Positions 1 to 4,714 are shown, counted from the first letter of the stretch. The stretch: DNA of 4,714 nt from a virus (IMGVR_UViG_2778261569_000015:1-4714), one strand, 5' to 3'. Made by a program: numbers and translations. Notes: generated by a model from the letters alone, not told the origin.

Positions 1-38
1 TGACGGACTTCGGGGGAAAAACGAGTATTTTTAGTCAT
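1..38 (-). CDS. IS3-family transposase OrfA, N-terminal 12 codons only (gene runs off the window)
   Basis: ATG at 38-36 on the minus strand, preceded by GAGGT with 7-nt spacing. Translation is MTKNTRFSPEVR, the N-terminus I recall for IS629/IS1203-type OrfA. Confidence 0.7.
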   Translation of the reverse strand, partial: MTKNTRFSPEVR

Positions 39-92
39 CCTGTTTACCTCTTTCTCAGGGAGTTTAGTCTCCAGGATTTCCGGGGCGGTTCA
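1..92 (-). mobile_element. Left end of an IS3-family insertion sequence (IS629/IS1203-like), continuing beyond the window edge
   Basis: The minus strand from 92 downward reads TGAACCGCCCCGGAAATCCTGGAGACTAAACTCCCTGAGAAAGAGGTAAACAGG-ATG. This is a TG-initiated terminal inverted repeat followed by SD GAGGT and the orfA start, and it matches my recollection of the IS629-group left end. The family call is from memory, not a search. Confidence 0.75.
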
Positions 93-1830: not shown

Positions 1831-2019
1831 TTATCCAGCCGGTATTTCGTTATTCAGGTACAGCGATACTTTGTTTAACGGGAGACATTCACCGGAAATT
1901 TTTTGCTCGTCTCTTGCCTGATGGCAGGATTCTTTACTGGCATAAATTCCGGTAATCACATTCTGTGGCTCACCTGTTATAAGAAAAACCGTCATCATCA
2001 GTGCAAACGCTGAACTCAC
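1831..2019 (-). CDS. ydfD: YdfD-like small lysis protein (62 aa)
   Basis: GTG start at 2019-2017 overlaps the dicB stop (GTGA). The product MSSAFALMMTVFLITGEPQ...EQKISGECLPLNKV...EIPAG resembles my recollection of E. coli Qin YdfD in length, hydrophobic N-terminus and EIPAG end, and it sits in the same position immediately after dicB. Confidence 0.6.
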   Translation of the reverse strand: MSSAFALMMTVFLITGEPQNVITGIYASKESCHQARDEQKISGECLPLNKVSLYLNNEIPAG

Positions 2020-2204
2020 TGCTGCCCTCCGAAAATGCCAAGTTCAAGAAGGGCAATTCTGGAGAGTATGGAATTATCATTGAGAAGATAAGGCTCATAT
2101 TTTCTCATCCTGATGGCGTCTTCAGTAAACTCCCGGTTACTGAGCAGAATACCAATATTAAAACACCCTTCAGACGTATTAACGTTTGGTAGTGACGTTT
2201 CCAT
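2016..2204 (-). CDS. dicB: DicB-family cell division inhibitor (62 aa)
   Basis: Internal start of the 97-aa track ORF: ATG at 2204-2202 with SD GAGGA 7 nt upstream (TTGTTGAGGACGCGATA-ATG). The N-terminal half METSLPNVNTSEGCFNIGILLSNREFTEDAI closely matches recalled K-12 DicB (METLLPNVNTSEGCFEIGVTISNPVFTEDAI); the C-terminal half is divergent. Confidence 0.85.
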   Translation of the reverse strand: METSLPNVNTSEGCFNIGILLSNREFTEDAIRMRKYEPYLLNDNSILSRIALLELGIFGGQQ

Positions 2205-2373: not shown

Positions 2374-2431
2374 AAAAAGGGCGGCAGAGCAGCCACGGAG
2401 TAAAACTGATACCGCCAAACGTCACCAGAAA
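2374..2431 (-). ncRNA. dicF: DicF small regulatory RNA
   Basis: Minus strand reads TTTCTGGTGACGTTTGGCGGTATCAGTTTTACTCCGTGGCTGCTCTGCCGCCCTTTTT, nearly identical to the recalled E. coli DicF sequence, including the 3' GC-rich stem and U-run. It lies between the upstream ORFs and dicB as in Qin. Confidence 0.8.
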
Positions 2432-2767: not shown

Positions 2768-3073
2768 ATGCACTCTAAATCAATCAATCGATATTATGTC
2801 CATGTGCAGTTATTTGAAGCAACAATGGAACAGGAGAAAAAGTTCGAGACTCTGATGCCAAATTTTAAATACTCCAGGATGATTAATGAAGGTGACATTG
2901 AATATAAATTATTGCCAGGGGCATACGTTATTCAGTCAACGCTTAATGCGAATCAAATACTTGAACAAACCTTTTCTATTGCTAATTCAGTTGGTGCTAA
3001 TGCTCACATTTTTGTTTGCCCTTATGATGAAAGTGCAACCCTTTTGCCTTGTGCTGATTTTAGCACTTACTAA
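2768..3073 (+). CDS. Hypothetical protein (101 aa), low-GC gene antisense to the operon
   Basis: ATG at 2768 preceded by a strong SD GGAGG (2758-2762, 5-nt spacing). The track ORF 2696-3073 is trimmed to this start. A sampled stretch is about one-third G+C, against roughly half in flanking genes. The 3' end overlaps the convergent ORF 3060-3365 by 14 bp. No recognisable motif or TM segment. Confidence 0.6.
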   Translation: MHSKSINRYYVHVQLFEATMEQEKKFETLMPNFKYSRMINEGDIEYKLLPGAYVIQSTLNANQILEQTFSIANSVGANAHIFVCPYDESATLLPCADFSTY

Positions 3074-3365
3074 CTAAATTTAATTTATGTTCAAGTTCGG
3101 CTATTTGCATACGTAGTGCTTTAACCATTGTTTCATGATAAATCTCACTCACTCCACCTGGGTGTGGGGTGAATTTAGGTGAATCATCTTTGTTTTCAGA
3201 ACTCAGATTCTCTTCGTACAGCTTAATAAAGGAATTACGCACATTATGGGATATATTGTCGATGGTTTCTTTTTCTACGGTACTCAGGTCAAGAGTCGCC
3301 AGTTGGGAACGAACTATATTCGCTGCCATTTCCTGGAATTGCATTGGTAAATCTTTAAATTCCAT
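3060..3365 (-). CDS. Hypothetical protein (101 aa) in the pL-like operon, AT-rich, C-terminal predicted helix
   Basis: Preferred start is ATG 3365-3363 with SD GAGGT 5 nt upstream; the track start at 3377 lacks an SD. It follows the ydfA-like gene with an 11-nt gap. Product begins MEFKDLPMQFQEMAANIVRSQ. Whether it corresponds to ydfB/ydfC of Qin cannot be judged from memory. Confidence 0.6.
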   Translation of the reverse strand: MEFKDLPMQFQEMAANIVRSQLATLDLSTVEKETIDNISHNVRNSFIKLYEENLSSENKDDSPKFTPHPGGVSEIYHETMVKALRMQIAELEHKLNLVSKC

Positions 3366-3376
3366 CGTCAACCTCA

Positions 3377-3529
3377 TCAGTCAGTGTTTCTGGCTAACCA
3401 GCGACGCGCGCCAGCTTCAGTTTTAAACGTTTTGCTTCTGGTATACGTCATCGCGGTAAACGTGCCGTCCAGGTTGGGGAATACTCCGTATACCAGAGAT
3501 TCGTTGTTGCCAAGATTGAGCGTATCCAT
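3377..3529 (-). CDS. ydfA: YdfA-like small protein (DUF1391-type, 50 aa)
   Basis: Internal start of the 82-aa track ORF: ATG 3529-3527 with SD GAGGT 4 nt upstream. Product MDTLNLGNNESLVYGVFPNLDGTFTAMTYTRSKTFKTEAGARRWLARNTD matches my recollection of Qin YdfA and is the first gene after the repressor, as in Qin. Confidence 0.65.
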   Translation of the reverse strand: MDTLNLGNNESLVYGVFPNLDGTFTAMTYTRSKTFKTEAGARRWLARNTD

Positions 3530-3600
3530 GTTGACCTCATTTGCCCTTAACGCCGGGGGGGCGGAACTAAGACCTGTCGCACCGTTGTGCTTTGATGGGA

Positions 3601-3640
3601 TATATTGTTCTCTTAAGATGAACATATGTCAACATTGTGA
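3601..3640 (-). promoter_or_regulatory. pL-like promoter with operator palindrome, driving the ydfA-dicF-dicB operon
   Basis: Minus strand has TTGACA (3632-3627), a 17-nt spacer, then AACAAT (3609-3604). An inverted repeat TGTTC-N9-GAACA (3606-3624) overlaps the spacer and -10. The segment is about 80% identical to the pR-like element at 4126-4165 in inverted orientation. Confidence 0.5.
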
Positions 3641-3653
3641 ATGCGCAAGAGGC

Positions 3654-3675
3654 AAAAAAAACCGCCTTCCGGCGG
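3654..3675 (-). terminator. Rho-independent terminator of the repressor gene (bidirectional in form)
   Basis: Hairpin CCGCC-TTCC-GGCGG (3662-3675). On the minus strand it is followed by an 8-nt U-run (complement of A-run 3654-3661), 22 nt downstream of the repressor stop. The plus strand has a T-rich tract after the stem (tattgttttgt). Confidence 0.7.
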
Positions 3676-3697
3676 TATTGTTTTGTAAAATAAAGAA

Positions 3698-4087
3698 TTA
3701 TTTTTGTCGCGTTATTGGGTCAACGTATTCTGAGTAAAATTCGGTCAGTTTTTGAAGGCGCATTTGAAAAGCTGCCAGCATATTTCTACGCTCTACAGGT
3801 GGCAGGTTTCTGTAAACATCAAGCAGGGCTTTCTCATCATCATCAAGCGCCTCTCTGTTTGTATCTTCTTTTCCTGTCAGTAGCCAGGAAAGGGAAACAT
3901 TTGTCGCTTCTGCAATTTTGGCTGCGGAATCTTTACTGATTGTCCCTCTTTTTTTCCAGGCGTTGACTGATGAGCGTCCTACACCAGCGATGCGCGCTAA
4001 ATCTGAACCGCTTAAATGATGCTGTTGCGAGATCGTATCTAACCTTTCTGCCAGCGGGGTGTCGTATTGCTTTTTTCTCATGTCCAT
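3698..4087 (-). CDS. cI/DicA-like phage repressor, XRE-family HTH (129 aa)
   Basis: HTH segment LSGSDLARIAGVGRSSVNAWKK near the N-terminus, with a C-terminal helical region (ALLDVYRNLPPVERRNMLAAFQMRLQKL) arranged like DicA. Divergent from a Cro-like gene and followed by its own terminator. No SD; a -10 hexamer abuts the ATG. Confidence 0.85.
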   Translation of the reverse strand: MDMRKKQYDTPLAERLDTISQQHHLSGSDLARIAGVGRSSVNAWKKRGTISKDSAAKIAEATNVSLSWLLTGKEDTNREALDDDEKALLDVYRNLPPVERRNMLAAFQMRLQKLTEFYSEYVDPITRQK

Positions 4088-4189
4088 TTAGCAATTATAA
4101 CCGTTCAGTGAACACTAACAATTCCTCGTAGTGTTGACTTATGTTCTCTTTAAGTGAACAATGTTGTGGCTGATTGAATTGGAGGTTGT
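4088..4189. promoter_or_regulatory. Divergent immunity promoter/operator region (pRM-like leftward, pR-like rightward)
   Basis: Minus-strand TATAAT at 4099-4094 ends 6 nt before the repressor ATG. Plus-strand TTGACT (4134-4139), 17-nt spacer, AACAAT (4157-4162). Operator-like palindromes TGTTC-N9-GAACA (4142-4160) and GTTCagtGAAC (4103-4113). SD GGAGG 4181-4185. Confidence 0.6.
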
Positions 4190-4465
4190 ATGACAGCATT
4201 GGACAAGGCAATAAAGATTGCTGGTGGTATTCGTCCGCTAGGGCGTGCAATAGGGGCTTGGCCGTCTCAAATACACAAATGGGCAAATGAATACAATGGT
4301 CGAGTGCCGACAGGGGAGCGGGTTCGTCAAATTTATATTGCAACTGGGGTGACTCCTCATGAATTGCGACCAGATTTATATCCGAATCCAACCGACGGGT
4401 TGCCTGCTGGAGATAAGGCTAACACACAAAATACACCGGAGTTGATTCATGAAAATCAAGCATGA
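4190..4465 (+). CDS. Cro-like HTH regulator (DicC/YdaS family, 91 aa)
   Basis: SD GGAGG 4 nt upstream of ATG 4190. N-terminal AIKIAGGIRPLGRAIGAWPSQIHKW and ...GVTPHELRPDLY fit the Cro/YdaS pattern. It is divergent from the repressor. Confidence 0.8.
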   Translation: MTALDKAIKIAGGIRPLGRAIGAWPSQIHKWANEYNGRVPTGERVRQIYIATGVTPHELRPDLYPNPTDGLPAGDKANTQNTPELIHENQA

Positions 4466-4714
4466 ACACATCCGCATGGCGATGAATGCCTGGGCGCGTC
4501 CTGATGGCGAAAAAGTTCCAGCAGCTGGAATAACCCAGGCTTATTTTGAGTTGGGTATGACGTTTCCTGAACTGTATGACGACAGCCATCCGGAAGCCCT
4601 GGCTCGCAATACCCAGAAAATTTTCCGCTGGGTAGAGAAAGACACCCCTGATGCTGTTGAAAAAATGCAGGCTCTGTTACCGGCGATCGAAAAGGCGATG
4701 CCGCCTTTGCTGGT
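4449..4714 (+). CDS. YdaT-like protein in the cII position, N-terminal 88 codons (no stop within window)
   Basis: ATG 4449 with GGAG 7 nt upstream; overlaps the cro-like gene's last 17 nt. Translation MKIKHEHIRMAMNAWARPDGEKVPAAGITQAYFELGMTFPELYDDSHPEALARNTQKIFRWVEKDTPDAVEKMQALLPAIEKAMPPLL. The MKIKHEHI start and position downstream of cro resemble the Rac YdaT family as I recall it. Confidence 0.65.
   Translation, partial: MKIKHEHIRMAMNAWARPDGEKVPAAGITQAYFELGMTFPELYDDSHPEALARNTQKIFRWVEKDTPDAVEKMQALLPAIEKAMPPLL

What the first reader, a model, noticed from the sequence alone, without database searches (positions are those of the whole stretch)
3601..4165. Inverted duplicate promoter-operator modules flank the repressor gene (OL/OR-like), each with a TGTTC-N9-GAACA palindrome
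The minus-strand segment 3640-3601 (tcacaatgTTGACAtatgttcatcttaagagAACAATata) and the plus-strand segment 4126-4165 (tcgtagtgTTGACTtatgttctctttaagtgAACAATgtt) are near-identical. Each has the same -35/17-nt/-10 geometry and the same 19-bp inverted repeat overlapping the spacer and -10. This is the arrangement expected for a repressor that shuts off both leftward (ydfA-dicF-dicB) and rightward (cro) early promoters. It predicts the operator half-site for this repressor directly from sequence.
Basis: seen in the sequence. Interest (0 to 1): 0.55.

Follow-up and report, generated by a model that had tools for sequence, protein, structure and literature searches.

The report
Prophage repressor's paired promoter-operator sites
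Two mirror-image promoter-plus-operator copies flank the repressor gene of a lambda-like prophage of E. coli O157:H7; this is the ordinary left/right immunity switch of such phages, here with an operator sequence (TGTTC-N9-GAACA) specific to this immunity type that I found described nowhere.

Summary
A 31-nt inverted repeat (84%) links 3604-3634 and 4132-4162. Each copy is TTGAC(A/T)-17 nt-AACAAT with a 19-bp TGTTC-N9-GAACA palindrome over the spacer and -10. No shuffle came near it.

The window is the immunity/early-left region of an ompW-integrated lambdoid prophage of E. coli O157:H7. It holds a DicA-family short repressor, a YdaS-type Cro, YdaT, and a leftward DUF1391-dicF-dicB-exonuclease operon.

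The OL/OR-like reading is supported by comparison:
- The 29-nt motif occurs almost only beside homologues of this repressor, usually as a divergent pair about 530 bp apart.
- The arms are invariant and the centre varies across 42 distinct copies.
- More distant relatives keep the layout but change both palindromes together.
- The left promoter is positionally homologous to Qin dicBp, which DicA represses.
- CP-933P has the same PRM/PR/PL logic, shown experimentally.

- Each promoter has one full operator, not three.
- A third, PRM-like promoter with a conserved lone half-site probably gives a leaderless repressor mRNA.
- Sequence cannot separate repressor binding from Cro binding.
- No binding or transcription start has been measured for this module.

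It is a new heteroimmune member of a known kind, of modest interest.

The parts
3601..3640 (-). PL-like promoter-operator module. -35 TTGACA at 3632-3627, 17-nt spacer, -10 AACAAT at 3609-3604.
   Evidence: Promoter scan, 10/12 matches. Arm of inverted repeat I1. Aligns with the -35 of Qin dicBp. Lies 64-68 nt after the repressor stop in all 35 related loci where it was found.
3606..3624 (.). OL-like operator. Plus strand TGTTCTCTTAAGATGAACA; in promoter orientation TGTTCATCTTAAGAGAACA.
   Evidence: Exact TGTTC-N9-GAACA. Weight-matrix score 28.1 bits. Positions 2-5 and 14-16, 18-19 are invariant in 23 distinct PL regions, and the centre varies.
3654..3683 (-). Intrinsic terminator after the repressor gene. 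Hairpin 3661-3676, with a T-run on the minus strand.
   Evidence: Terminator scan: ACCGCCGGAAGGCGGT followed by TTTTTTTT. The stem and T-run are invariant in 23 distinct PL regions.
3698..4087 (-). Immunity repressor, 129 aa. N-terminal Cro/C1-type HTH and a C-terminal two-helix hairpin; no S24 peptidase domain.
   Evidence: Pfam PF07022 1.8e-12 and PF01381 2.6e-8. 26% identity to DicA across both domains, E 5e-7. AlphaFold model pLDDT 81.5, helices 11-71 and 83-121. Fold matches: 434 and P22 c2 DNA-binding domains and SinR. RefSeq WP_001380402.1, annotated from the second ATG.
4094..4121 (-). PRM-like promoter for the repressor. -35 TTGTTA at 4121-4116, 16-nt spacer, -10 TATAAT at 4099-4094. 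The predicted +1 falls on the A of ATG 4087, giving a leaderless mRNA.
   Evidence: Promoter scan, 10/12 matches. GCAATTATAACC is invariant in 19 distinct PR regions from four genera. There is no room for a ribosome-binding site. A leaderless repressor from PRM was shown experimentally for PaaR2 in CP-933P (PMC8630535). The start site here is inferred.
4107..4115 (.). Lone conserved half-site AGTGAACAC in the spacer of the PRM-like promoter. In E. coli copies it is part of the palindrome GTTCAGTGAAC, 4103-4113.
   Evidence: Invariant in 19 distinct PR regions, whereas the left half of the small palindrome is not conserved outside E. coli. It is identical to the right arm of OR. Its function is unexplained.
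4126..4165 (+). PR-like promoter-operator module. -35 TTGACT at 4134-4139, 17-nt spacer, -10 AACAAT at 4157-4162.
   Evidence: Promoter scan. Arm of inverted repeat I1. Always 46 nt from the repressor ATG in 36 related loci.
4142..4160 (.). OR-like operator TGTTCTCTTTAAGTGAACA. 8 of 9 positions are palindromic.
   Evidence: Exact TGTTC-N9-GAACA. Weight-matrix score 30.1 bits. Positions 2-5, 8-9 and 13-19 are invariant in 19 distinct PR regions.
4190..4465 (+). Cro-like regulator of the YdaS type, 91 aa.
   Evidence: Pfam PF15943, 39 bits against a cut-off of 30. phrog_35 transcriptional repressor, 1.6e-25. Weak sequence matches to solved Cro proteins 5w8y and 3bd1. Not related to DicC.
4442..4459 (.). 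Exact copy of the YdaT (CII-analogue) operator OM, TTGATTCATGAAAATCAA, at the cro/ydaT junction.
   Evidence: The only zero-mismatch hit to TTGATT-N6-AATCAA in the window. This motif and its position were footprinted in CP-933P (PMC9986795).
4449..4714 (+). ydaT (CII analogue), 5' part; it runs off the window.
   Evidence: Pfam PF06254 1.5e-8. Annotated as a YdaT family protein. The first 21 nt are identical to the CP-933P ydaT cloning primer.
3377..3529 (-). First gene of the leftward operon: DUF1391 (ydfA-like), 50 aa.
   Evidence: Pfam PF07151 3.9e-28. RefSeq annotation. The leader is conserved with the Qin ydfA leader.
2379..2430 (-). dicF small RNA in the leftward operon.
   Evidence: Rfam RF00039, 75 bits against a gathering score of 48.
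2016..2204 (-). dicB cell-division inhibitor in the leftward operon.
   Evidence: Pfam PF05358 7.4e-34. Annotated dicB.

Best explanation
The two modules are the leftward (PL/OL) and rightward (PR/OR) early promoters of a lambdoid prophage immunity region. Each carries one 19-bp operator, TGTTC-N9-GAACA, covering 15 nt of the promoter spacer and 4 nt of the -10.

Inferred mechanism, none of it measured here:
- A dimer, or a higher oligomer formed through the C-terminal helical hairpin, of the 129-aa DicA-family repressor binds both operators and excludes RNA polymerase.
- At OR this silences the YdaS-type cro, ydaT and the replication genes.
- At OL it silences the DUF1391-dicF-dicB-exonuclease-xis-int operon.
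- The repressor is made from a third, PRM-like promoter (4121..4094, minus) as a leaderless mRNA. OR lies about 64 bp upstream of that start, so bound repressor could also activate its own gene, as reported for DicA at Oc.
- The Cro-type protein probably reads the same or overlapping sites, as in CP-933P.
- The repressor has no autocleavage domain, so release would need an antirepressor or a Cro-driven bistable flip.

What is shown: the sequence anatomy, homology, motif-repressor association, conservation pattern and co-variation. What is inferred: binding, promoter activity, the leaderless start, activation and the induction route.
For: Anatomy:
- Inverted 31-nt repeat.
- Both promoters have the same geometry.
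- The motif occurs twice only.
- No shuffle approaches the observed match.

Gene context: HTH repressor, YdaS, YdaT, DUF1391 and DicB, dicF, and a complete lambdoid prophage at ompW.

Association: among 2.9 million viral contigs, the 29-nt motif hits 31 contigs. Of these, 25 carry a repressor homologue of at least 81% identity next to the motif, and 20 carry both copies on opposite strands about 530 bp apart.

Conservation: 3 of 20 arm positions vary against 12 of 18 centre positions across 19 and 23 distinct regions, Fisher p = 0.002. 56-60% of the surrounding non-coding columns vary.

Co-variation: 15 family members down to 38% repressor identity keep the layout but carry different palindromes. 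PR-PL identity is 12.2/19 within a locus and 8.2/19 between loci; 0 of 20000 permutations reach the observed sum.

Homology to characterised systems:
- The -35 and leader align with Qin dicBp, while the operator segment is swapped.
- Qin has Oc and a dicBp copy 546 bp apart in the same arrangement.
- DicA represses dicBp, represses dicC and binds Oc (PMC10448788; PMC3441716).
- CP-933P has a leaderless PRM, a PR, and a PL with -35/-10 elements identical to those of PR; both PaaR2 and YdaS repress PL (PMC8630535).
Against: - No binding, footprint, start-site or reporter data exist for this immunity type, and I found no paper on this protein.
- The -10 AACAAT matches the consensus at only 4 of 6 positions. 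The right arm overlaps it, so its invariance could partly reflect promoter function.
- The arm centres are 14 bp apart, wider than in the 434, P22 or lambda operators.
- There is only one full site per promoter, so lambda-style cooperative occupancy of adjacent sites cannot be assumed.
- The repressor recognition helix (SRSSVNAW) is identical in relatives whose operators are TGTTAGC-N5-GCTAACA. The bases that distinguish the two types track the Cro HTH instead.
- Operators, repressor and cro are inherited as one module, so co-variation cannot say which protein reads them.
Confidence: 0.85

Rival explanations
1. The palindromes are operators of the YdaS-type Cro only. The 129-aa repressor would act elsewhere or recognise a different element.
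For: Operator positions 5-7 (TTC against TAGC) follow the Cro HTH type (PSQIHKW against PSSLNKW). The repressors of the two types share the recognition helix SRSSVNAW and are up to 84% identical. In CP-933P, YdaS binds the intergenic region and represses PL about 100-fold (PMC8630535).
Against: - In CP-933P, lambda and Qin the repressor binds the same regions as Cro (PMC8630535, PMC3441716).
- The outer operator triplets TGT...ACA go with repressor helix 'SRS...' in 11 loci. In five loci with 'SP(T/Q)SV' the right arm ends in AAT.
- A repressor that did not cover PR and PL could not maintain lysogeny.
Confidence: 0.08
2. The similarity is only a relic of promoter duplication or recombination between two early promoters. 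The palindromes have no operator function.
For: Both copies include a shared -35 and -10, so common ancestry of the promoters is likely.
Against: - The left arm TGTTC lies in the spacer, where promoters are not sequence-constrained, yet GTTC is invariant in 42 distinct copies while the centre and flanks vary.
- It is the reverse complement of the right arm.
- In heteroimmune relatives both copies change to the same new palindrome.
Confidence: 0.03
3. The inverted repeats act as RNA hairpins, for example as attenuators or processing sites.
For: Each site can form a short hairpin. One of four strand orientations reaches -9.6 kcal/mol with z = -3.0.
Against: - The sites lie upstream of the predicted starts of the promoters they sit in.
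- On the promoter strands the fold energy is -4.7 kcal/mol with z about -1.
- The variable centre shows no compensatory pattern.
Confidence: 0.01
4. The sites bind a host transcription factor rather than a phage protein.
For: None specific. Host factors (H-NS/Cnu, Fis, Hfq) do influence the Qin dicA/dicB region (PMC3441716, PMC10448788).
Against: The motif changes with the immunity module within the same host species, and it is found almost only beside this repressor. It does not fit a LexA box.
Confidence: 0.02

Closest known systems
Qin cryptic prophage immunity locus of E. coli K-12 (dicA-dicC, operator Oc, dicBp driving ydfA-ydfB-ydfC-dicF-dicB)
   Same: - The repressor is homologous over both domains (26% identity).
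- The repressor gene is followed by a leftward-type promoter that aligns at the -35 and in the leader.
- The cargo matches: DUF1391, dicF, dicB, DUF1482, exonuclease.
- One operator overlaps the cro-side promoter and a second copy overlaps dicBp; they are 546 bp apart in Qin and 536 bp apart here.
- The repressor has no cleavage domain (PMC10448788).
   Different: - The operator sequence differs: TTGTTAGTCATAACTAACAA (20 bp) against TGTTC-N9-GAACA (19 bp).
- Cro is DicC in Qin and YdaS-type here.
- ydfB/ydfC are replaced by an unrelated ORF.
- No Rem homologue sits at the syntenic position.
CP-933P immunity region of E. coli O157:H7 EDL933 (PaaR2 / YdaS / YdaT; PRM933P, PR933P, PL933P, PRE933P)
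   Same: - Divergent repressor and ydaS genes with a short intergenic region (97 bp against 102 bp).
- PL has the same -35/-10 as PR.
- The repressor is short and not cleavable.
- The PRM geometry fits a leaderless repressor mRNA.
- The YdaT operator TTGATT-N6-AATCAA is identical and sits at the ydaS/ydaT junction, and the 5' end of ydaT is identical.
   Different: - The repressor differs: PaaR2 starts MQKKEIRRL.
- No paaA2-parE2 toxin-antitoxin genes follow the repressor.
- The operators differ: GTTTAGTAA-type repeats, four inverted repeats plus three pseudo-symmetric sites, against one strong palindrome per promoter here.
- The 5' part of ydaS differs.
Bacteriophage lambda CI/Cro with OL and OR
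   Same: - Divergent repressor and cro genes.
- The repressor gene is co-oriented with PL.
- Operators overlap PR and PL.
- PRM probably gives a leaderless mRNA.
- A CII-type activator site lies at the cro/cII junction.
   Different: - Lambda has three 17-bp operators on each side with cooperative binding and looping. Here there is one full site on each side plus a lone half-site.
- Lambda CI has an S24 autocleavage domain; this repressor has none.
Antirepressor-controlled short repressors (Gifsy GfoR/GfhR; DicA/Rem)
   Same: A short HTH repressor without a cleavage domain, which implies induction by an antirepressor (PMC10448788).
   Different: No antirepressor gene or LexA box could be identified in this prophage.

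Membership tests
Lambdoid immunity region (lambda CI/Cro, OL/OR paradigm) | Divergent repressor and cro genes separated by a short region that holds PR and PRM. | tested here: met
   Repressor 3698-4087 (minus) and cro 4190-4465 (plus), with a 102-bp gap. PR-like and PRM-like promoters were found.
Lambdoid immunity region (lambda CI/Cro, OL/OR paradigm) | Related operators overlap both PR and a distant PL on the far side of the repressor gene. | tested here: met
   The same 19-bp palindrome lies in the spacer and -10 of both promoters, 536 bp apart. This is sequence-level evidence only.
Lambdoid immunity region (lambda CI/Cro, OL/OR paradigm) | Three tandem operators at each side. | tested here: not met
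   The weight-matrix scan gives two sites (30.1 and 28.1 bits), and the next site scores 0.0. Only a lone half-site lies near PRM.
Lambdoid immunity region (lambda CI/Cro, OL/OR paradigm) | Repressor with a C-terminal S24 autocleavage domain (RecA-dependent induction). | tested here: not met
   The protein has 129 aa, matches HTH families only, and its C-terminus is modelled as a helical hairpin.
Lambdoid immunity region (lambda CI/Cro, OL/OR paradigm) | The repressor binds the operators and represses both promoters. | not testable with these tools
   This needs EMSA or footprinting and reporter assays.
DicA-type (Qin) immunity module | A repressor homologous to DicA: HTH plus a short helical C-terminal domain. 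| tested here: met
   BLASTP E 5e-7, 26% identity, spanning residues 30-129.
DicA-type (Qin) immunity module | A dicBp-type promoter downstream of the repressor gene that drives ydfA...dicF-dicB. | tested here: met
   Alignment with Qin dicBp and the ydfA leader. DUF1391 and DicB. dicF.
DicA-type (Qin) immunity module | Operator of the Oc type (TTGTTAGTCATAACTAACAA). | tested here: not met
   The operators here are TGTTC-N9-GAACA. Only the fragment ACTAACAA occurs, at 4114-4121, inside the PRM-like -35.
DicA-type (Qin) immunity module | A DicC-type Cro. | tested here: not met
   No similarity to DicC. The Cro here belongs to the YdaS family.
DicA-type (Qin) immunity module | The Rem antirepressor. 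| tested here: not met
   The syntenic ORF between hokD and the DUF968 gene has no similarity to Rem. Only that ORF was compared; the rest of the prophage was checked through its annotation only.
CP-933P-type switch (PaaR2/YdaS/YdaT) | A YdaS-type Cro and YdaT, with the YdaT operator TTGATT-N6-AATCAA at their junction. | tested here: met
   PF15943 and PF06254. Exact motif at 4442-4459, in the same position as footprinted in CP-933P.
CP-933P-type switch (PaaR2/YdaS/YdaT) | PL with the same -35/-10 as PR. | tested here: met
   TTGACA-17-AACAAT and TTGACT-17-AACAAT. Compare PMC8630535.
CP-933P-type switch (PaaR2/YdaS/YdaT) | Leaderless repressor mRNA from PRM. | tested here: inconclusive
   The TATAAT ends 6 nt before ATG 4087 and there is no ribosome-binding site. 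No start-site data are available.
CP-933P-type switch (PaaR2/YdaS/YdaT) | A PaaR2 repressor followed by the paaA2-parE2 toxin-antitoxin genes. | tested here: not met
   The repressor gene is followed by a terminator and then PL. The N-terminus differs from the MQKKE start of PaaR2.

The most novel reading that the evidence does not exclude
The 19-bp operator may carry two overlaid recognition codes. The outer triplets (TGT...ACA) would be read by the repressor recognition helix: they are kept wherever the helix is SRSSVN or SRSAAN, and the right-arm ACA becomes AAT where it is SP(T/Q)SV. The inner bases (TTC against TAGC against TGA) would be read by the YdaS-type Cro, whose HTH changes in step with them. 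If so, immunity specificity in this large enterobacterial family would evolve mainly through Cro and the inner bases, plus one or two repressor residues outside the recognition helix (K/R against H/Y/F after the conserved Trp). The conserved lone half-sites near PRM would then be Cro sites.
Probability: 0.2. Interest if true: 0.5.

Novelty: new member of a known kind. Interest (0 to 1): 0.3.

Why it matters
The result gives a testable operator, TGTTC-N9-GAACA, and a promoter map for an immunity type present in about 1.5% of complete E. coli genomes (81 of 5426). Many of these are O157:H7 strains. In them the module controls dicF and dicB, which affect cell division and phage resistance.

The family also offers a graded natural series of repressor, Cro and operator variants with a fixed layout. 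That series could be used to study how phage immunity specificities diverge, or as a source of orthogonal repressor-operator pairs.

It does not change the understanding of how lambdoid switches work.

Tried and rejected
- **Extra operators (OL2/3, OR2/3).** The weight-matrix scan found none above chance. Candidate 19-mers at 4096-4114 and 4102-4120 score -5.6 and -0.5, and their left or right arms are not conserved outside E. coli.
- **Further copies in the prophage.** There are none in the 20.6 kb searched.
- **Gly or Ser at the start of the recognition helix as the specificity determinant.** Rejected: locus L031, with VSRSSVN, still has TGTTC operators.
- **RNA hairpin reading.** The folds are weak.
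- **Antirepressor search.** The syntenic ORF is not related to Rem. CTG(T/A)-N8-(A/T)CAG matches lie in the CDSs checked, or beside IS and effector genes outside the prophage's early region. Nothing is annotated as an antirepressor.
- **Solved structures.** No close relative was found; the best sequence match is the phage 186 CI N-terminal domain at E 0.004. Fold matches are generic Cro/C1 HTH domains and SinR.
- **Defence-system models.** Only weak HTH-level hits (CapH, RmrA) appeared.
- **Literature.** The RefSeq accession gave nothing.
- **Direct comparison with PaaR2.** This was not possible; only primer sequences were available.
- **Helical phasing of the 536-bp separation.** About 51 helical turns here and about 52 in Qin. 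I give this no weight, because loops of that length are torsionally flexible.

Full report
**Observation.** They match at 30 of 40 positions by my count. The core is a 31-nt inverted repeat, 3604-3634 / 4132-4162, at 84%, and it is by far the best inverted repeat in the region.

A consensus scan independently reports TTGACA-17-AACAAT on the minus strand (3632..3604) and TTGACT-17-AACAAT on the plus strand (4134..4162). TGTTC-N9-GAACA occurs only at 3606-3624 and 4142-4160, with 0.18 expected. It occurs nowhere else in 20.6 kb of the same prophage.

Between the two non-coding stretches the best inverted 31-mer match is 26/31. In 1000 dinucleotide shuffles the mean was 17.0, the sd 1.0 and the maximum 21. 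The palindromes are perfect only in the 5-bp arms, with 8 of 9 positions pairing at the right site and 6 of 9 at the left.

**What the window is.** It is 100% identical to part of an ompW-integrated, apparently complete lambdoid prophage of E. coli O157:H7 strain E32511. From right to left the genes are:
- ydaT, a CII analogue (PF06254);
- a YdaS-type cro (PF15943);
- the 129-aa repressor (PF07022/PF01381), on the minus strand;
- an intrinsic terminator;
- the leftward operon: a DUF1391 (ydfA-like) gene, a 105-aa ORF, dicF (Rfam, 75 bits), dicB, a DUF1482 gene and a RecE-like exonuclease.

The repressor has no peptidase domain. Its model is a five-helix Cro/C1 HTH domain plus a C-terminal helical hairpin. 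The HTH domain resembles the 434 and P22 c2 DNA-binding domains, and the overall architecture resembles SinR. The protein is 26% identical to Qin DicA across both domains. The Cro is unrelated to DicC.

**Test 1: association.** I scanned 2.9 million viral contigs for TTGACNNNTGTTC-N9-GAACAAT and found 31 contigs. Of these, 25 carry a homologue of this repressor (at least 81% identity) next to the motif. In 20 the motif is present twice, on opposite strands about 530 bp apart and flanking the gene. The remaining 6 are isolated, unrelated hits. In 36 loci of this type the right module always begins 46 nt from the repressor ATG. The left module begins 64-68 nt after the stop in the 35 loci where it was found.

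**Test 2: pattern of conservation.** I made unbiased alignments of 19 distinct right regions and 23 distinct left regions, from E. coli, Salmonella, Lelliottia and Klebsiella. Only 3 of 20 arm positions vary, against 12 of 18 centre positions (Fisher p = 0.002). Of the surrounding non-coding columns, 56-60% vary. The left arm lies in the promoter spacer, where promoter function does not constrain sequence. Its invariance and its complementarity to the right arm therefore argue for a dimeric DNA-binding protein.

**Test 3: co-variation.** Fifteen family members, down to 38% repressor identity, keep the same layout: TTGAC at -35, then the palindrome starting about 3 nt later, on both sides of the gene. 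The palindromes differ between them, for example:
- TGTTAGC-N5-GCTAACA;
- TGTCAG-N7-CTGACA;
- TTAGCC-N3-AGCTCAA;
- TAAGC-N5-GCTTA;
- TAAACA-N3-TGTTTA;
- TGTTGA-N7-TCAACA.

The right and left copies within a locus match each other at 12.2 of 19 positions, against 8.2 of 19 between loci. None of 20000 permutations reached the observed sum.

**Test 4: homology to characterised systems.** The left module aligns with Qin dicBp at the -35 and throughout the ydfA leader, while the roughly 23 bp holding the operator is replaced. Qin has its Oc operator on the cro side and a second copy in dicBp, 546 bp apart. DicA is reported to repress dicBp and dicC, to bind Oc and to activate its own gene (PMC10448788; PMC3441716).

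In CP-933P of O157:H7 the following were shown by RACE, footprinting and reporters (PMC8630535):
- PRM gives a leaderless repressor mRNA;
- PR and PL share identical -35/-10 elements;
- both PaaR2 and YdaS bind the intergenic region and repress PL.

1. There is one full operator per promoter. A weight matrix scores the two sites 30.1 and 28.1 bits, and the next site in the window scores 0.0.
2. A third promoter, TTGTTA-16-TATAAT (4121..4094, minus), places +1 on the A of ATG 4087. There is no room for a ribosome-binding site, and its -10 block GCAATTATAACC is invariant across genera. This fits a leaderless repressor mRNA, as in lambda cI and PaaR2, but it is inferred.
3. A lone half-site, AGTGAACAC (4107-4115), is identical to the right arm of OR. 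It sits in that promoter's spacer and is invariant. It may be a weak autoregulatory site or a Cro site. It remains unexplained.
4. The same sites may be read by Cro. The repressors of the TGTTC type and the TGTTAGC type share the recognition helix SRSSVNAW and are up to 84% identical, whereas their Cro HTH motifs differ sharply (PSQIHKW against PSSLNKW). The outer TGT...ACA triplets track the repressor helix (SRS... against SP...).

**Mechanism.** This is the best-supported account, and its binding and transcription steps are inferred. The repressor occupies OL and OR and occludes the spacer and -10 of PL and PR. That silences dicF, dicB, the recombination genes on the left, and cro, ydaT and replication on the right. 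The repressor gene is transcribed from the PRM-like promoter, possibly stimulated by repressor bound about 64 bp upstream, as proposed for DicA. Cro counteracts it at the same region.

The induction route is unknown:
- there is no cleavage domain;
- there is no Rem homologue at the syntenic position;
- no LexA-box-like match sits where an SOS-controlled antirepressor gene would be expected.

**Verdict.** The finding is correct and well supported at the sequence level, but it describes the standard architecture of a lambdoid immunity region. It is a new heteroimmune member of the DicA-family and YdaS/YdaT modules. Its operator sequence is one I found described nowhere. Interest is modest. The comparative series of specificity variants is the most useful by-product.

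Noticed in passing
window 4442-4459: An exact copy of the footprinted YdaT (CII-analogue) operator of CP-933P, TTGATT-N6-AATCAA, lies at the cro/ydaT junction. CP-933P primer sequences for the ydaT 5' end and the 3'-terminal part of ydaS match the window exactly at 4449-4483, but the ydaS 5' end and the repressor differ. This prophage is therefore a heteroimmune mosaic relative of CP-933P, with a breakpoint inside ydaS.
   Followed up: partly
window 4094-4121 (minus) and ATG 4087: A PRM-like promoter, TTGTTA-16-TATAAT, ends 6 nt before the repressor ATG with no ribosome-binding site. This predicts a leaderless repressor mRNA. RefSeq annotates the start at the second ATG, 4081.
   Followed up: partly
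window 4107-4115: A lone half-site, AGTGAACAC, is invariant across four genera in the spacer of the PRM-like promoter. TTAGC-type relatives carry a matching half-palindrome (TAAGCC-N3-GGCTAA) at the same place, and many relatives carry another half-site just upstream of the cro ribosome-binding site. The function is unknown.
   Followed up: partly
relatives L009, L010, L017, L026-L034, L068-L070: The outer operator triplets co-vary with the repressor recognition helix and the inner bases co-vary with the Cro HTH type. The residue after the conserved Trp (K/R against H/Y/F) is the only difference within the recognition-helix segment that separates TGTTC-type from TTAGC-type repressors.
   Followed up: partly
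window 2768-3377: An AT-rich cassette (34-39% GC) holds a plus-strand ORF (101 aa, phrog_8894) that converges on a minus-strand 105-aa ORF (phrog_6937) inside the leftward operon. It replaces the ydfB/ydfC genes of other variants. It looks like a moron or variable slot. There were no matches to defence-system models.
   Followed up: partly
window 3530-3600 (minus strand leader): The leader of the leftward transcript is strongly conserved: CATCAAAGCACA...GGTGCGACAGG...GTTCCGC...CGGCGTTAAGGG. It is shared with the Qin ydfA leader and includes a short GC hairpin. It could be a nut-like or translational control element.
   Followed up: no
L001 17780-18570; L066: No antirepressor could be identified. 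The ORF at the position of Qin rem, between hokD and the DUF968 gene, is unrelated to Rem. No LexA-box-like match lies upstream of a candidate gene.
   Followed up: partly
window 1-90: The first 90 bases of the window do not align with the otherwise 100% identical O157:H7 records, which match from position 91 on. A few strains match from base 1. This suggests a variable segment inside the exonuclease gene's 3' part.
   Followed up: no
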